The translations under genes and the position numbers were made by a program. DNA of 64,000 nucleotides from the human T2T-CHM13v2.0 reference genome, Homo sapiens. The DNA lies in NCBI RefSeq assembly GCF_009914755.1, contig NC_060939.1; one strand, 5' to 3'. Position 1 is the stretch's first letter. Every line of letters begins with the position of its first letter. The notes under the pieces were generated by a model, which did no database searches, was not told where the DNA came from, and saw only the letters and a program-made list of their open reading frames with translations. Positions 47,287 to 61,681 of this stretch are shown here, piece after piece.

Positions 47287-48335
47287 AAGGGAAGGAGTGG
47301 CAGGAGTGTGATCAGTCAGCTGCCTAAGCCTCCTCTCTGACCCCCCAGAACCTCTAGTGAACCTGCCATTCAGTGTCACTGTCTTTCGGAGCTATTGCTA
47401 GTTAAAAATAGGGAAGATTTACATGTTAAATACTTATCTGATAATTCCCCCACCAGGGCTGCAGCGAATTTGTGGTTGAATCCACTTTTAGTTACTACCT
47501 ACTTTTCCAGTGCATAACTTAGAAACTCAAGTAGCAGAAAATAAAGTTTAATTCTAAAATTATTATTGTAAAAATGAATATGACAATCCTGTGACCTCTG
47601 CTCCTTCACCGGGAAGGCAGCATCTCACGGGCTGAATCCATTCCTGTGACGGCTCAGGACTTTCTTCTAGGCTTCCTTTGTGGGTTTGGGTTCACATTTC
47701 TCCATCCCCTCACAGGATCTAGGGCTGAATTTCTAAAGAAGGAGGAGAAGTACAGGGAAAATGGGCTGTTGTCCTTACAAAGGAAATGGTCCCATCTTTT
47801 CAATGCCCCAGGCCCTCTGGAAAGCCCACAGAGACCCCACATTGCCAGCCTGGGAATCTGAATAAAAATAACCTCAGGCCTCTTGGAATAGACACAGATG
47901 TTGTGCTTATTTTCATACATTTAGAAGCAAATGTAAACAATGAATTAATTCTGGCATCCACTAGTGACTGCAATCAACCCCAGTGTTACAAGCTGTCCTG
48001 TGGGAAGCAGATGGCAGGAATGCAGCACAGGGCAGGGCAGAGCCCCAGGACAGGACAGTAGCTGCAGATCACAGGGCAGGGCAGGGCAGGGCCCCAGGAC
48101 AGGACAGTAGCTGCAGCCCAGATGCAGTTACTGTTCTGGGACCTTCCTGAAGTAAGGGGCAGAGGCCCAGTGCCTCAGAGACCTAATGCCTCTGAACTCT
48201 CTCCCCTCTCAACTCCCGCTCCTTCCTCCCCCATATCCAGGGGAGGCCATGGCTCATTCACTCCCTGCCTGAGCCCCAGAGGATCTTCAGAGAGCTGCCC
48301 AGCCTGGGACAAAGAGGCTGGACACATACATCTTC
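47287..48335 (+). repeat. Direct duplication, copy A (1049 bp)
   Basis: Colinear with 60085-61681; the ORF track shows near-identical translations (47654..47920 vs 60410..60724; 47786..48061 vs 60590..60865). Confidence 0.97.
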
Positions 48336-48785
48336 ACCGCGCCTGGCCAATTTTTGTATTTTATTTTTTAGAGGGAGTCTCACTCTGTCGCCCAGGCTGG
48401 AGTGCAGTGGCGCCATCTCAGCTTACTGCAAGCTCTGCCTCCTGGGTTCTCGCCATTCTCCTCCCTCAGCCTCCCGAGTAGCTGGGACCACAGGCGCCCG
48501 CCACCATGCCTGGCTAATTTTTTGTATTTTTAGTAGAGACGGGGTTTCACCGTGTTAGCCAGGATGGTCTCGATCTCCTGACCTTGTGATCTGCCTGCCT
48601 CGGCCTCCTAATGTGCTGGGATTACAGGCGTGAGCTCCCACGCCTGGCCCAATTTTTGTATTTTTAATAGAGACGGGGTTTCGCCATGTTGCCCAGGCTG
48701 GTCTCGAACTCCTGAGCTCAAATGATCCACCTGCCTCGGCATCCCAAAGTGCTGGGATTACAGGCGTTAGCCACTGAGCCTGGCC
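48336..48785 (-). mobile_element. AluY-like element (about 48361-48649) nested in an older Alu whose right arm is cut off at 48336
   Basis: TSD CAATTTTTGTATTTT at 48348 and 48650; only about 12 bp of the host Alu right arm remain left of the TSD. Confidence 0.85.
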
Positions 48786-49069
48786 ATCAGTCCAGATTAT
48801 TTAAAAATTTTGATATCTTAAACTGTGTGAGCTATGAGACCGTGGCCGGTGTGAGGCTTGTGAAGGATCACACCTACTACCACAGTTTATTCACCAGGAC
48901 CTGAGCCAGTGCTTCTAAGTCCTAACTGGCTGAATTTGCTTATGCCTAGAGGGACCAGAACCTCAGTCAATGACACATGTTCACAGCCTTGTGGCTGGAG
49001 TCCCCAACTTGCAGTGAAGTAAGATTGTCCACAGATATATTTCACATTGTTTTGAAATTTCACCTAAGC

Positions 49070-49690
49070 TAGGGTGTCTCAATTTCGGCATTACTGACAC
49101 ATTGGGCTGGGGAATTCTTTGTTGTGAGGGGCTGCCCTGACCCTTGTAGAATGTTTAACAGAATAACTGGCCTCTGCCCAGTAGATGCCAGTGGCACTCC
49201 CAGTTCAACCAATTCTGCCGACAAAGTTTCCCCAAAAGACAATGCCCCTCCATAAAAGAAAACACAAGCACATTTGTATTGTGGGGCCTAGCTACATAAC
49301 CTGTGGGCCTCAAACTAGCAGCCTGAAGGATGCCTGGAAGCTCATTACAAATGGAGAATCTCAGGCCCCACTCAGACCTAGAAATCAGGATCTGCCTTTC
49401 AGCAAGATCCCCGGGTGATTCATCTGCACAATCAAGTTTGAGAATCACATTCATGGAGTTTATACAAACTGCACATCTGCGTGTGACTGGAGTGGGGCCA
49501 GCTCTGTTTCTCAAGGGTGGGAGGGGGATTACTGCCATTTTGGGTGGGACAATGTGTTGTTGTGTGGGATTGTCCCATGCTTTGTGGGACAGACTATCCC
49601 ATCCCCATTAAATGTTCACAATGCTCCCCAGTGCCCAAGACAAGTAGACATTCCCTCTAAGACTTGGTGGAGTAGAGCTGCCCTGAGGTG
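49070..49690. mobile_element. Cluster of old hAT MITE fragments (MER20-like, MER5A-like)
   Basis: AGGGTGTCTCAATTTCGGCATTACTGAC...TTCTTTGTTGTGAGGGGCTGCCCTG; AATCTCAGGCCCCACTCAGACCTA...AAGTTTGAGAA. Confidence 0.6.
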
Positions 49691-59500: not shown

Positions 59501-59559
59501 TGAGAAAGCCGTGTTGTTAGGCATGGGGGCCTGAGTTAGTAGTTCTTACGTACTTTCCT
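59501..59559 (-). pseudogene. NUMT copy of mt-tRNA-Ser(AGY)
   Basis: ...AAGAACTACTAACTCAGGCCCCCATGCCTAACAACACGGCTTTCTCA; anticodon decayed GCT>ACT. Confidence 0.9.
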
Positions 59560-59628
59560 GGGAAATAAGAAGTTGAAGGCTTCTATTATTAGACCCACAA
59601 TCTAACGTTTTGATTAAACTATATTTAC
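59560..59628 (-). pseudogene. NUMT copy of mt-tRNA-His
   Basis: GTAAATATAGTTTAATCAAAACGTTAGATTGTGGGTCTAA...; anticodon GTG. Confidence 0.92.
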
Positions 59629-60084
59629 AGGTTAGAAATCCTATAATAATTTTAGGATTTAGAGATCGTAGGACAATGGGTGAAAGGTGTATACATATTA
59701 GTATATTTTCTCGTGTAAAGGATGGTTTAATGCTGTTAATATAGTATGTAAGTGCTCCTCGTTGTGTTGTGACAAGTATGTAGAGGGAATAAATGGCTGT
59801 GATTAATATATTAAGTCCTATGAGCATGATAGTAATGTTTGATCAGGAGGATGAAGCCATTGTTACAAGGAGTTCTCCTATTAGATTAATAGTGGGGGGT
59901 AGGGCAAGGTTGGTGAGATTTGCTGTAAGTCATCAAAAGGCTATTAGTGGAAGTCAAGTTTGAAGTCCTCGAGAGAGTAATATGATTCGGCTGTGGTTTT
60001 GCTCGTAGTTTGAATTTGCTAGGCAGAAAAGTAAGGACGAAGTAAGTCCGTGGGCAATTACGAGGATAATTGCGCGGGTAAAAC
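59629..60084 (-). pseudogene. NUMT: 3' part of mitochondrial ND4
   Basis: GCCCACGGACTTAC...TGCCTAGCAAATTCAAACTACGA; peptide LITAIYSLY...TTQRG...KPSFTREN; mitochondrial gene order ND4-His-Ser-Leu-ND5 preserved. Confidence 0.95.
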
Positions 60085-61681
60085 AAGGGAAGGAGTAGCA
60101 GGATTGTGATCAGTCAGCTGCCTGAGCCTCCTCTCTGACCCCCCAGAACCTCTAGTGAACATGCCACTCAGTGTCACTGTCTTTCGGAGCTATTGCTAGT
60201 TAAAAACAGGGTAAGATTTACATGTTAAATACTTCTCTGATAATTCCCCCACCAGGGCTGCAGCGAATTTGTGGTTGAATCCACTTTTAGTTACTACCTA
60301 CTTTTCCAGTGCATAACTTAGAAACTCAAGTAGCAGAAAATAAATTTGATTTTAATTCTGAAATTACTATTGTAAAGATGAATATGACAATCCTGTGACC
60401 TCTGCTCCTTCACAGGGAAGACAGCGTCTCATGGGCTGGACCCATTCCTGTGACCGCTCTGGACTTTCTTCTAGGCTTCCTTTGTGGGTTTGGGTTCACA
60501 TTTCTCCATCCCCTCACAGGATCTAGGGCTGAATTTCTAAAGAAGAAGGAGAAGTACAGGGAAAATGGGTTGTTGTCCTTACAAAGGAAATGGTCCCATC
60601 TTTTCAATGCCCCAGGCCCTCTGGAAAGCCCACAGAGACCCCACATTGCCAGCCTGGGAATCTGAATAAAAATAACCTCAGGCCTCTTGGAATAGACACA
60701 GATGTTGTGCTTATTTTCATACATTTAGAAGCAAACGTAAACTATGAATTAATTCTGGCACCCACTAGTGACTGCAATCAACCCCAGTGTTACAAGCTGT
60801 CCTGTGGGAAGCAGATGGCAGGAATGCAGCACAGGGCAGGGCAGAACCCCAGGACAGGACAGTAGCTGCAGACCACAGGGCAGGGCAGGGCAGGGCCCCA
60901 GGACAGGACAGCAGCTGCAGACCACAGGGCAGGGCAGGGCAGGGCCCCAGGACAGGACAGTAGCTGCAGACCACAGGGCAGGAGAGGGCAGGACCCCAGG
61001 AAAGGTCAGCACTGCAGACCACAGGGTTGGGCAGGGCAGGGTAGGGCCCCAGGACAGGTCATTAGCTGCAGACCACATGGCAGGGCAGGGCAGGACCCCA
61101 GGACAGGTCAGCACTGCAGACCACATGGCAGGGCAGGGCAGGACCCCAGGACAGGTCAGCATTGCAGACCACAGGGCAGGGCAGGGCAGGACCCCAGGAC
61201 AGGTCAGCACTGCAGACCACAGGGCAGGGCAGGGCAGGGCAGGGCCCCAGGACAGGTCAGCACTGCAGACCACAGGGCAGGGCAGGGCAGGACCCCAGGA
61301 CAGGTCAGCACTGCAGACCACAGGGCAGGGCAGGGCAGGGCCCCAGGACAGGTCAGCACTGCAGACCACAGGGCAGGGCAGGGCAGGGCCCCAGGACAGG
61401 TCAGTAGCTGCATACCACAGGGTAGAGCAGGGCAGGGCCCAAGGACAGGACAGTAGCTGCAGCCCAGATGCAGTTACTGTTCTGGGACCTTCCTGAAGTA
61501 AAGGGCAGAGGCCCAGTGCCTCAGAGACCTAATACCTCTGAACTCTCTCCCCTCTCAACTCCTGCTCCTTCCTCCCCGATATCCAGGGGAGGCCATGGCT
61601 CATTCACTCCCTGCCTGAGCCTCAGAGGATCTTCAGAGAGCTGTCCAGCCTGGGACAAAGAGGCTGGACACGTACATCTTC
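60085..61681 (+). repeat. Direct duplication, copy A' (1597 bp including the longer VNTR)
   Basis: Matches 47287-48335 from AAGGGAAGGAGT to TACATCTTC. Confidence 0.97.
60825..61462 (+). repeat. G-rich VNTR, about 48-bp unit (GCAGACCACA(GGGCA)2-4...CCCCAGGACAGGTCAGCACT) x13
   Basis: 13 CCC(C/A)AGGA anchors counted; the paralogous site at 48022-48116 has 2. Confidence 0.93.

What the first reader, a model, noticed from the sequence alone, without database searches (positions are those of the whole stretch)
47287..61681. An approximately 11.75-kb satellite-NUMT cassette inserted with an approximately 1-kb target duplication: candidate composite mobile unit
Seen: A (47287-48335) and A' (60085-61681) are direct copies, roughly 95-97% identical by eye outside the VNTR. 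Both inner junctions cut through pre-existing elements: A abuts a truncated Alu arm at 48336 and A' abuts mid-ND4 NUMT sequence at 60084. The outer flanks look uninterrupted. Inference: the ancestral locus had one A, and the block [Alu/MER DNA + palindromic satellite + NUMT] arrived from another nuclear site. The route could be replication template switching with re-copying of 1 kb, or a circular intermediate. The NUMT looks more diverged than A vs A', consistent with secondary nuclear spread. If the same satellite-NUMT junction recurs elsewhere, this is a protein-free composite element that disperses mitochondrial DNA.
Basis: partly seen in the sequence, partly recalled or inferred. Interest (0 to 1): 0.85.

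Follow-up and report, generated by a model that had tools for sequence, protein, structure and literature searches.

The report
Old mitochondrial pseudogene relocated by complex duplication
An 11.7-kb patchwork of nuclear DNA (a copy of a nearby segment, a palindromic satellite block and an already old mitochondrial pseudogene) sits between two copies of a 1-kb stretch on human chromosome 15; it looks like a one-off ancient repair or replication accident, not a mobile element.

Summary
A (47287-48335) and A' (60085-61681) are direct copies, 96% identical, and bracket exactly 11,749 bases. The insert is a three-part mosaic. (1) 48336-50162 copies a segment 30 kb downstream on the same strand at 95-97% identity; that source is intact. 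(2) 50163-58635 holds two SATR-type palindromic satellite units. (3) 58636-60084 is one collinear minus-strand ND4-tRNA-ND5 NUMT. A/A' (3.3%) and the local copy (2.4-3.0%) diverge equally, which fits one event. The NUMT carries 3.9-6.5% private, nuclear-type substitutions against about 1.2-1.7% per copy for the duplication. It was therefore already nuclear DNA. The satellite-NUMT junction is unique in CHM13, and A has only these two copies. None of 19 other NUMT loci carries the satellite. None of 3 other satellite loci has flanking repeats. Best reading: a single complex duplication-insertion in an ape ancestor, not a recurrent composite mobile unit. No outgroup genome could be searched, so a model with a resident satellite-NUMT remains open.

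The parts
47287..48335 (+). A: left copy of the duplicated 1,049-base target. It contains a 49-base VNTR with 2.0 copies at 48026-48116.
   Evidence: It has only two copies in CHM13.
48336..50162 (+). Y': 1,827-base copy of a segment 30 kb downstream (C15:37960188-37962343, window-relative 78188-80343, outside the window). It comprises ~15 bases of a truncated Alu, a minus-strand Alu with an extra monomer (48351-48789), and 1.37 kb of otherwise unique DNA carrying two short dispersed-repeat pieces.
   Evidence: 97% over 13-1373 of 1376; 95.0% over 464 and 97.3% over 1366; the source's Alu continues leftwards intact. Alu/SRP-like.
50163..53663 (.). Satellite unit 1. It lacks ~1 kb at its left end at the junction with Y'. 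Layout: inverted 76-base monomers 50166-50730, AT-rich spacer 50755-51041, forward array 51034-53532.
   Evidence: offset 4480 to unit 2; many other loci begin to match at about 53,664.
53664..58635 (.). Satellite unit 2. Layout: inverted monomers 53932-55207, AT-rich 105-base repeats 55370-55794, forward array about 55800-58521, and a variant tail up to 58635.
   Evidence: The family is dispersed at 66-83% identity.
58636..60084 (-). NUMT, 1,449 bases, in mitochondrial gene order: ND4 C-terminal part (60084 down to about 59630), tRNA-like 59560-59628 and 59430-59500, and ND5 N-terminal part (about 59430 down to 58636). Five private indels break the ND5 frame.
   Evidence: ORFs under code 2. 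Rfam tRNA 34-35 bits. PF00361, E 3.5e-16, 1.1e-11 and 1.3e-14; left boundary; right boundary; indels.
60085..61681 (+). A': right copy of the duplicated target, 1,597 bases. Its 48-base VNTR has 12.9 copies (60832-61466).

Best explanation
This is a one-off complex structural rearrangement in an ape ancestor: a duplication-insertion. It is not a transposable unit.

A 1,049-base stretch of the BMF-BUB1B intergenic region became duplicated. Three pieces of nuclear DNA were joined head to tail between the two copies:
- a fresh 1.83-kb copy of a segment 30 kb downstream on the same chromatid;
- an 8.5-kb dimer of a palindromic SATR-type satellite unit;
- attached to that dimer, 1.45 kb of a mitochondrial pseudogene that had already been decaying in the nucleus for roughly 2.4-4 times as long.

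Shown:
- the anatomy, the four sharp junctions and the local source of piece 1;
- the equal divergence of A/A' and Y'/Y;
- the older nuclear age of the NUMT;
- the uniqueness of the satellite-NUMT junction in this genome.

Inferred:
- All four junctions formed in one event.
- The mechanism was either serial template switching of a stalled or broken replication fork (FoSTeS/MMBIR-like: leave at the end of A, copy Y, copy satellite-NUMT, re-enter 1,049 bases upstream), or a staggered break whose ~1-kb overhangs were filled in while loose fragments were ligated between the ends.
- The satellite-NUMT piece came from a donor site that is no longer present.

Overall divergence of 3.0-3.3% is about the human-orangutan level (recalled calibration). 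That places the event roughly 12-16 million years ago. The NUMT left the mitochondrion roughly 30-50 million years ago.
For: - Sharp junctions and an exact 1,049-base duplication.
- A occurs only twice in CHM13: 8 of 9 matches lie in the two copies, and the ninth is an 85-base VNTR-like match.
- Y' has exactly one full-length paralogue, 30 kb downstream in the same orientation. 2 of 40 matches are full length; the other 38 are 84-155-base repeat pieces.
- The source keeps the rest of the Alu that is cut at 48336, so the direction of copying is Y to Y'.
- A/A' shows 31/950 = 3.3% and Y'/Y shows 32/1360 = 2.35% in the unique part, 56/1839 = 3.0% overall. These are statistically the same age.
- NUMT private substitutions are 63/1255 = 5.0%, ts33:tv30, codon positions 19/14/19 plus 11 non-coding, evenly spread. 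At sites conserved in at least 85% of 15 other NUMTs they are 41/1060 = 3.9%. The ML terminal branch is 0.065. By contrast, the branch shared with its sister NUMT is 31 ts:1 tv and third-position biased, that is, mitochondrial.
- The junction is unique: 1 of 65 matches spans it.
- No ORF in the insert has a Pfam match (0 of 8).
- Templated insertions copied in cis are a described signature of replicative complex rearrangements (PMC4352052, passages).
- Fusions of mitochondrial and nuclear DNA in cancers mostly accompany nuclear rearrangements (PMC4448678, start of abstract).
Against: - No donor for the satellite-NUMT piece exists in CHM13. The best satellite matches elsewhere are at most 83% and the best NUMT match is 90%. 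A purely replicative copy would be expected to leave its template behind.
- Junctions show only 0-1 base of microhomology where this can be judged. This is weaker than typical for MMBIR.
- Mismatches in A/A' are not uniform: 12 fall in 111 bases at 47546-47656, next to a 165-base identical tract. Gene conversion may therefore have made A/A' look younger than it is.
- The two satellite units are only 86-92% alike over most of their length, with patches at 95-97%, so their history is not clock-like.
- No outgroup genome was available, so the 'empty site' L-A-R is inferred and not seen.
Confidence: 0.55

Rival explanations
1. Resident block, stepwise history. The satellite and NUMT have sat at this locus since the NUMT's origin. 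The A duplication and the Y' copy were added later at its edges. Alternatively, A/A' arose together with the NUMT and was later homogenised by gene conversion, with Y' inserted afterwards.
For: - The NUMT, and probably the satellite dimer, are older than A/A' and Y'/Y.
- No donor locus exists elsewhere in CHM13.
- The 47546-47656 patch of A/A' is 10.8% diverged (12 of 111). This equals twice the NUMT's 5% and would fit an unconverted remnant.
- Palindromic satellites are plausible fork barriers, so repeated template switches at their edges are conceivable (inference).
Against: - Every resident variant needs a coincidence. Either the later copy of A must start exactly at the NUMT/A' boundary, or Y' and A' must land exactly at the two edges of the block.
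- The equal divergence of A/A' and Y'/Y (3.3% vs 3.0%) would be accidental under the gene-conversion variant.
Confidence: 0.27
2. The satellite-NUMT cassette is a protein-free composite mobile unit that inserts with kb-scale target duplications and disperses mitochondrial DNA.
For: - The cassette is flanked by a target duplication.
- The satellite family is dispersed over many chromosomes as 3-5-kb units of conserved architecture.
- SATR-containing composites (Xiao, DA) that spread to about 30 loci are in print (PMC2700803, abstract and passages).
Against: - The junction is unique in CHM13 (1 of 65 matches).
- 0 of 19 other NUMT loci of this region have the satellite within 0.5-1.5 kb.
- 0 of 3 other satellite loci have flank-flank repeats within ~3 kb.
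- The left 1.83 kb of the cassette is a local copy, not cargo from a distant site.
- Block ends differ between loci, so there are no defined termini.
Confidence: 0.04
3. Fresh mitochondrial DNA was captured from the organelle as filler in the same break-repair event that duplicated A. This is the classical NUMT-mediated end joining.
For: - NUMTs are known filler at double-strand breaks and often join bluntly (PMC2567098, passages).
- The NUMT/A' junction shows no clear microhomology.
Against: - The NUMT's private substitutions are nuclear in type and 2.4-4 times too many for the age of A/A' and Y'/Y.
- It carries five private indels.
- In PMC2567098 none of the recent NUMTs studied carried extra donor DNA, whereas this one is fused to 8.5 kb of satellite.
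Confidence: 0.04
4. Assembly artefact: a false duplication or mis-join in T2T-CHM13.
For: Satellite and VNTR sequence is hard to assemble. No reads were available here.
Against: - The copies differ by 3% and by VNTR length. The local copy differs from its source by 2.4-5% and lacks a later Alu insertion. These are not features of a duplicated-contig artefact.
- RefSeq annotates both pseudogene parts at this place (gene table supplied with the finding).
Confidence: 0.01

Closest known systems
Post-insertion duplication of NUMTs / NUMTs carried in segmental duplications (Hazkani-Covo et al. 2003; Bensasson et al. 2003; only their titles were seen, in the reference list of PMC2567098)
   Same: A mitochondrial pseudogene reaches a new nuclear configuration as nuclear DNA, together with neighbouring non-mitochondrial sequence.
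   Different: Here no second copy of the NUMT with its neighbour survives. The piece lies inside a four-junction mosaic flanked by a 1-kb target duplication. It is not a simple paralogous block.
Replicative complex rearrangements (FoSTeS/MMBIR) with templated insertions (PMC4352052, passages; considered for NUMTs and judged very unlikely in PMC2567098)
   Same: - Several junctions lie together.
- A templated piece is copied in cis from 30 kb away.
- The departure region is duplicated.
- Mismatches are more frequent near junctions (26 of 87 in 400 of 2777 sites).
- It meets the criterion set in PMC2567098 that a template-switched NUMT should carry extra donor-site DNA.
   Different: - Microhomology is only 0-1 base.
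- The template for the largest piece is missing.
- The junction-proximal mismatch excess is far larger than the ~2 per 15 kb reported for such events, so it is not explained by them.
Xiao and DA giant composite elements (PMC2700803, abstract and passages; PMC5088589, passages)
   Same: They are protein-free composites built from pieces of several donor loci, they contain SATR1/SATR2 satellite, and they are bounded by direct repeats.
   Different: - Their direct repeats are SATR-HERVE-SATR modules and they exist at ~30 loci.
- Here the direct repeats are unique target DNA with only two copies.
- Here the satellite lies inside, no retroviral part was seen, and the structure is single-copy.
SATR1/SATR2 satellite core units (macaque T2T preprint 10.1101/2025.08.04.668424, passages)
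   Same: The architecture is an inverted SATR1 array, an AT-rich spacer and a forward SATR1 array. The units are dispersed at interstitial loci and associated with duplications.
   Different: The family name could not be tested against a repeat library here. The human block is a solitary dimer fused to a NUMT.
NUMT-mediated double-strand-break repair (PMC2567098, passages)
   Same: Mitochondrial sequence sits at a repaired break with blunt-looking joins.
   Different: Those insertions are short (0.03-6 kb), simple and fresh from the organelle. This NUMT was old when the flanking duplication arose.

Membership tests
NUMT (nuclear mitochondrial pseudogene) | Homology to mitochondrial genes in mitochondrial gene order | tested here: met
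   The minus strand reads ND4 C-terminus, then two tRNA-like hits, then ND5 N-terminus. PF00361 matches have E 3.5e-16, 1.1e-11 and 1.3e-14. Rfam tRNA scores are 34-35 bits. It is collinear with 19 other NUMT loci.
NUMT (nuclear mitochondrial pseudogene) | Decayed reading frames, no longer under mitochondrial constraint | tested here: met
   There are five private indels. Private substitutions are even across codon positions, 19/14/19.
Transposable element with target-site duplication | Several copies sharing the same termini at different sites | tested here: not met
   The junction is unique in CHM13 (1 of 65 matches). The Y'/satellite junction is absent at the only other Y locus. Satellite block ends differ among 4 loci.
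Transposable element with target-site duplication | Short target duplication of fixed length (2-20 bases, as stated in PMC2700803) | tested here: not met
   The duplication is 1,049 bases. 0 of 3 other satellite loci show flank-flank repeats.
Transposable element with target-site duplication | Encoded transposition protein, or terminal repeats recognised by one | tested here: not met
   0 of 8 ORFs of 80 or more residues inside the insert match Pfam. A ninth ORF, spanning the A/Alu junction, was not sent.
Xiao/DA composite element | Core flanked by SATR-HERVE-SATR direct repeats | tested here: not met
   The flanking repeats A/A' are non-satellite DNA found only here. The satellite lies inside the insert.
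Xiao/DA composite element | Spread to about 30 loci | tested here: not met
   all junctions are single-copy.
Segmental duplication (operational definition of at least 1 kb and at least 90% identity; recalled) | Length and identity thresholds | tested here: met
   A/A' is 1,049 bases at 96%. Y'/Y is 1.83 kb at 95-97%.
FoSTeS/MMBIR complex rearrangement | Templated insertion copied from nearby sequence in cis | tested here: met
   Y' is copied from 30 kb downstream in the same orientation, and the source is intact.
FoSTeS/MMBIR complex rearrangement | Microhomology at junctions | tested here: inconclusive
   The A/Y' junction has 1 base. The NUMT/A' junction has 0-1. The two satellite junctions cannot be judged without the donor.
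FoSTeS/MMBIR complex rearrangement | All junctions formed in one event | tested here: inconclusive
   The equal divergence of A/A' and Y'/Y fits one event. A presence/absence series in outgroups was not available.
SATR1/SATR2 satellite | Inverted array, AT-rich spacer and forward array as core unit (preprint) | tested here: met
   the same layout occurs in the window's two units and in 3 of 3 other loci.
SATR1/SATR2 satellite | Match to the curated consensus (Dfam/Repbase) | not testable with these tools
No repeat library is on hand.

The most novel reading that the evidence does not exclude
Palindromic SATR units are recurrently mobilised without any protein of their own. Possible routes are extrachromosomal circles, or template switching provoked by their hairpin-forming structure. 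On this reading they drag neighbouring DNA along. This locus would then be a caught instance in which such a unit carried an old NUMT to a new site with a kb-scale target duplication. That would be a satellite-driven route for secondary spread of mitochondrial DNA.
Probability: 0.06. Interest if true: 0.7.

Novelty: new member of a known kind. Interest (0 to 1): 0.33.

Why it matters
NUMTs are usually read as direct snapshots of mitochondrial DNA at the moment of insertion, and their flanks are used to date and place that insertion. At this locus the flanks are about three times younger than the NUMT's nuclear residence. Dating or presence/absence scoring of this NUMT from its flanks would therefore mislead.

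A 2008 survey set criteria for a NUMT moved by template switching and found no case among the recent NUMTs it studied. This locus meets one of them: extra donor DNA fused to the NUMT, alongside a cis-copied fragment in the same insert. It adds a base-resolved ancient example of a four-junction duplication-insertion next to a palindromic satellite, just upstream of BUB1B.

It does not establish a new class of mobile element.

Tried and rejected
- Donor search. Genome-wide searches with the junction, two satellite pieces and the NUMT found no high-identity source. Each search scored only 22-40 of 87-618 candidates, so weak or masked copies could be missed.
- 'Other half' search. The extension of the sister NUMT was used to look for the remainder of a broken donor NUMT. 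It found only a 166-base NUMT fragment 1.02 Mb downstream on chromosome 15. That fragment is 89.5% identical to ours over 105 bases and overlaps our end instead of abutting it, so it is not the donor.
- chr2:201.69 Mb NUMT as immediate source: rejected. It is 90.4% and not ~97% identical, shares no frameshift indel, and ends ~6 bases short of ours.
- ARAGORN found no tRNA at 59300-59700. Rfam did.
- Flank repeats at more satellite loci could not be tested. Only 3 of the 6 planned loci could be fetched.
- No paper mentions MTND5P37 or MTND4P37 (0 papers).
- The S1/S2 satellite divergence was considered as a clock and rejected as unreliable (86-97% in patches).
- The excess of mismatches near junctions was considered as an MMBIR mutation signature. 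It is much larger than published rates, so it is left unexplained.

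
Full report
**Observation.**
- blastn aligns 47287-48120 with 60085-60924 (96.07% of 840 columns) and 48028-48335 with 61374-61681 (95.45% of 308).
- Homology starts and stops abruptly at all four edges.
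- The length difference between the copies (1,049 vs 1,597 bases) is a 48-49-base VNTR, with 2.0 copies in A and 12.9 in A'.
- Outside the VNTR there are 31 mismatches in 950 aligned bases (3.3%, K2P 0.0335).
- In the whole CHM13 assembly A has only these two copies. Of 9 matches, 8 lie in them and the ninth is an 85-base, 79% VNTR-like match on contig 2.

**Anatomy of the 11,749-base insert (48336-60084).** It is a mosaic of three pieces.

*Piece 1, 48336-50162.*
- It has exactly one full-length paralogue in the genome, at C15:37960980-37962343. That is 30 kb downstream on the same strand and about 5.6 kb upstream of BUB1B.
- Of 40 matches, 2 are full length (the window and this locus). The other 38 are 84-155-base dispersed-repeat pieces.
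- After I fetched the next 40 kb, blastn gave 95.0% over 464 columns for the Alu part and 97.3% over 1,366 for the rest.
- In the downstream copy the Alu that is cut at 48336 continues leftwards, and unique DNA continues past the right end. In the window the same positions abut A and satellite. The downstream copy is therefore the source and 48336-50162 a truncated copy of it.
- The source later received a full Alu that the copy lacks.
- The Alu identity rests on Rfam SRP-like hits on the minus strand and on 39 matches to other Alu-like repeats in the window.

*Piece 2, 50163-58635.*
- It is a 76-base satellite in blocks of alternating orientation separated by AT-rich spacers.
- It consists of two units of the form [inverted block][AT spacer][forward block]. 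They align in register at offsets of 3.8-4.8 kb with 86-92% identity and patches of 95-97%.
- The first unit lacks about 1 kb at the junction with piece 1.
- The family is dispersed over many chromosomes at 66-83% identity. No copy is close enough to be a donor (22 and 40 candidates scored of 358 and 347).
- Three other loci that I could fetch are single 3.3-4.3-kb units with the same layout.
- This layout is what a macaque T2T preprint describes for SATR1 cores: an inverted SATR1 array, an AT-rich repeat and a forward SATR1 array (passages). The family name itself could not be tested against a repeat library.

*Piece 3, 58636-60084.*
- It is one collinear NUMT on the minus strand.
- Under the vertebrate mitochondrial code the minus strand reads the ND4 C-terminal part, then two Rfam tRNA hits (59560-59628 and 59430-59500), then the ND5 N-terminal part. 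The Pfam matches are to PF00361.
- The '+' given for MTND5P37 in the added gene table disagrees with this.
- The left boundary is set by where other NUMTs stop matching. The right boundary is set by where they continue and ours does not.

**Ages.**
- A/A' (3.3%) and Y'/Y (2.35% in the unique part, 5.0% in the CpG-rich Alu part, 56/1839 = 3.0% overall) do not differ significantly. This fits a single event.
- For the NUMT I aligned it with 16 of the 19 other NUMT loci of the same mtDNA region that I held. I dropped L058, L062 and L063 as partial or rearranged.
- In the ML tree our NUMT and one on contig 2 (201.69 Mb, 90.4% identical) branch farthest from L059, a nearly intact copy with open frames of 278 and 166 residues.
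- I polarised changes with the sister NUMT and the five next NUMTs. Ours has 63 private substitutions in 1,255 polarisable sites (5.0%). They are 33 transitions to 30 transversions, with 19/14/19 at codon positions 1/2/3 and 11 outside the two reading frames, and they are evenly spread along the sequence.
- The branch shared with the sister is 31 transitions to 1 transversion and third-position biased, which is the mitochondrial pattern.
- At sites conserved in at least 85% of the other 15 NUMTs the private load is still 41/1060 = 3.9%. The ML terminal branch is 0.065.
- The per-copy divergence of A/A' and Y'/Y is about 1.2-1.7%. The NUMT has therefore been nuclear 2.4-4 times longer than the flanking duplication is old.
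- With recalled calibrations (human-orangutan about 3%, human-macaque about 6.5%) the rearrangement dates to roughly 12-16 million years ago and the NUMT to roughly 30-50 million years ago.

**Is it a mobile unit?** The evidence says no.
- Only the window itself (1 of 65 listed matches) spans the satellite-NUMT junction.
- None of 19 other NUMT loci has this satellite in 0.5-1.5 kb of flank.
- None of 3 other satellite loci has flank-to-flank direct repeats within about 3 kb.
- Satellite block ends differ between loci.
- 0 of 8 ORFs in the insert match Pfam.
- The left sixth of the 'cassette' is a local copy.
- The closest published composites, Xiao and DA, are bounded by SATR-HERVE-SATR modules and occur at about 30 loci (PMC2700803; PMC5088589). 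Neither feature is met here.

**Mechanism.** The most economical account is a single duplication-insertion.
- A replicating or broken end left the template at 48335 and copied 1.83 kb from 30 kb ahead.
- It then acquired a 9.9-kb satellite-NUMT fragment and re-entered 1,049 bases upstream of where it had left.
- Replicative template switching produces exactly such templated cis insertions (PMC4352052, passages).
- A staggered break with fill-in and ligation of loose fragments would give the same product.
- Hazkani-Covo and Covo considered NUMT copying by template switching. They expected extra donor-site DNA and found none in their recent NUMTs (PMC2567098, passages). This locus shows that feature.

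Points against a purely replicative model:
- Junction microhomology is only 0-1 base.
- No template for the satellite-NUMT piece survives in CHM13.

**Main rival.** The satellite-NUMT may have been resident here, with A' and Y' added later, or A/A' may be old but homogenised.
- The missing donor favours this. So does a patch of A/A' (47546-47656) with 12 mismatches in 111 bases next to a 165-base identical tract.
- Every resident variant, however, requires a later copy to begin or land exactly at a pre-existing boundary.
- I rate one-event import at 0.55 and resident or stepwise models at 0.27.
- Only outgroup genomes, which these tools do not hold, can decide.

**Unexplained.**
- Mismatches between the copies are enriched within 100 bases of the junctions: 26 of 87 in 400 of 2,777 sites, binomial p = 1.6e-4. 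Without the Alu part it is 16 of 63 in 300 of 2,311 sites, p = 0.006 (a post-hoc test). The excess is much larger than the point-mutation rates reported around replicative junctions.
- The sister NUMT on contig 2 ends within about 6 bases of ours on the ND5 side.
- A 166-base NUMT fragment of the same vintage lies 1.02 Mb downstream on chromosome 15.
- Neither can be the immediate donor, given 89.5-90.4% identity, no shared indels and a shorter end.

**Verdict.** The locus is an ancient, single-copy complex rearrangement that relocated or re-framed an already old NUMT next to a palindromic satellite. It is a new member of known kinds (complex duplication-insertion; post-insertion movement of NUMTs) and not a new mobile element.

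Noticed in passing
window 58636-59465: The added RefSeq table gives MTND5P37 as '+', but all ND5-like frames and Pfam matches are on the minus strand and are collinear with the ND4 part and the tRNAs. The two 'pseudogenes' are one NUMT.
   Followed up: yes
L045 (C2:201695752-201698467) and L067:988-1153 (C15:38963258-38963423): Two other NUMTs are each about 90% identical to this one. The contig-2 copy ends within ~6 bases of ours on the ND5 side but runs at least 1.27 kb further on the ND4 side. The other is a 166-base fragment 1.02 Mb downstream on the same chromosome. Together they look like three nuclear copies of one mitochondrial vintage. Whether they share one insertion episode is open.
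   Followed up: partly
window-relative 78678-78979 (L029:4678-4979), outside the window: The source segment Y carries a full-length plus-strand Alu with an A-rich tail that the copy Y' lacks, so this Alu inserted after the duplication.
   Followed up: partly
window 48026-48116 and 60832-61466: The 48-49-base G+C-rich VNTR has 2.0 copies in A and 12.9 in A'. Which state is ancestral is unknown.
   Followed up: no
window 47287-47386, 48236-48435, 50063-50162; also 47546-47656: Mismatches between the duplicated copies cluster near the four junctions (26 of 87 in 400 of 2,777 sites, p = 1.6e-4). A further internal patch has 12 mismatches in 111 bases. Gene conversion, error-prone synthesis or local hypermutability are all possible.
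   Followed up: partly
L064:3260-6581, L065:2893-7092, L066:2928-7192 and many loci: The satellite family occurs on many chromosomes as solitary 3.3-4.3-kb units with the same inverted/AT-spacer/forward layout. Many hits fall in regions known (recalled) for OR7E-type duplications on 8p23, 4p16, 11q13 and 3p12. How solitary units spread is unexplained.
   Followed up: partly
window 48504-48771 and L029:4382-4635: The Alu in Y' has an extra tandem 134-base monomer (three SRP-like monomers on the minus strand). The source has the same feature, so it predates the duplication.
   Followed up: partly
window 49324-49419 (-): There is a weak mir-544-like Rfam hit (32.3 bits, gathering score 66.5, E 0.0075). 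It lies inside one of two short dispersed-repeat pieces of Y' and is probably repeat-derived.
   Followed up: no
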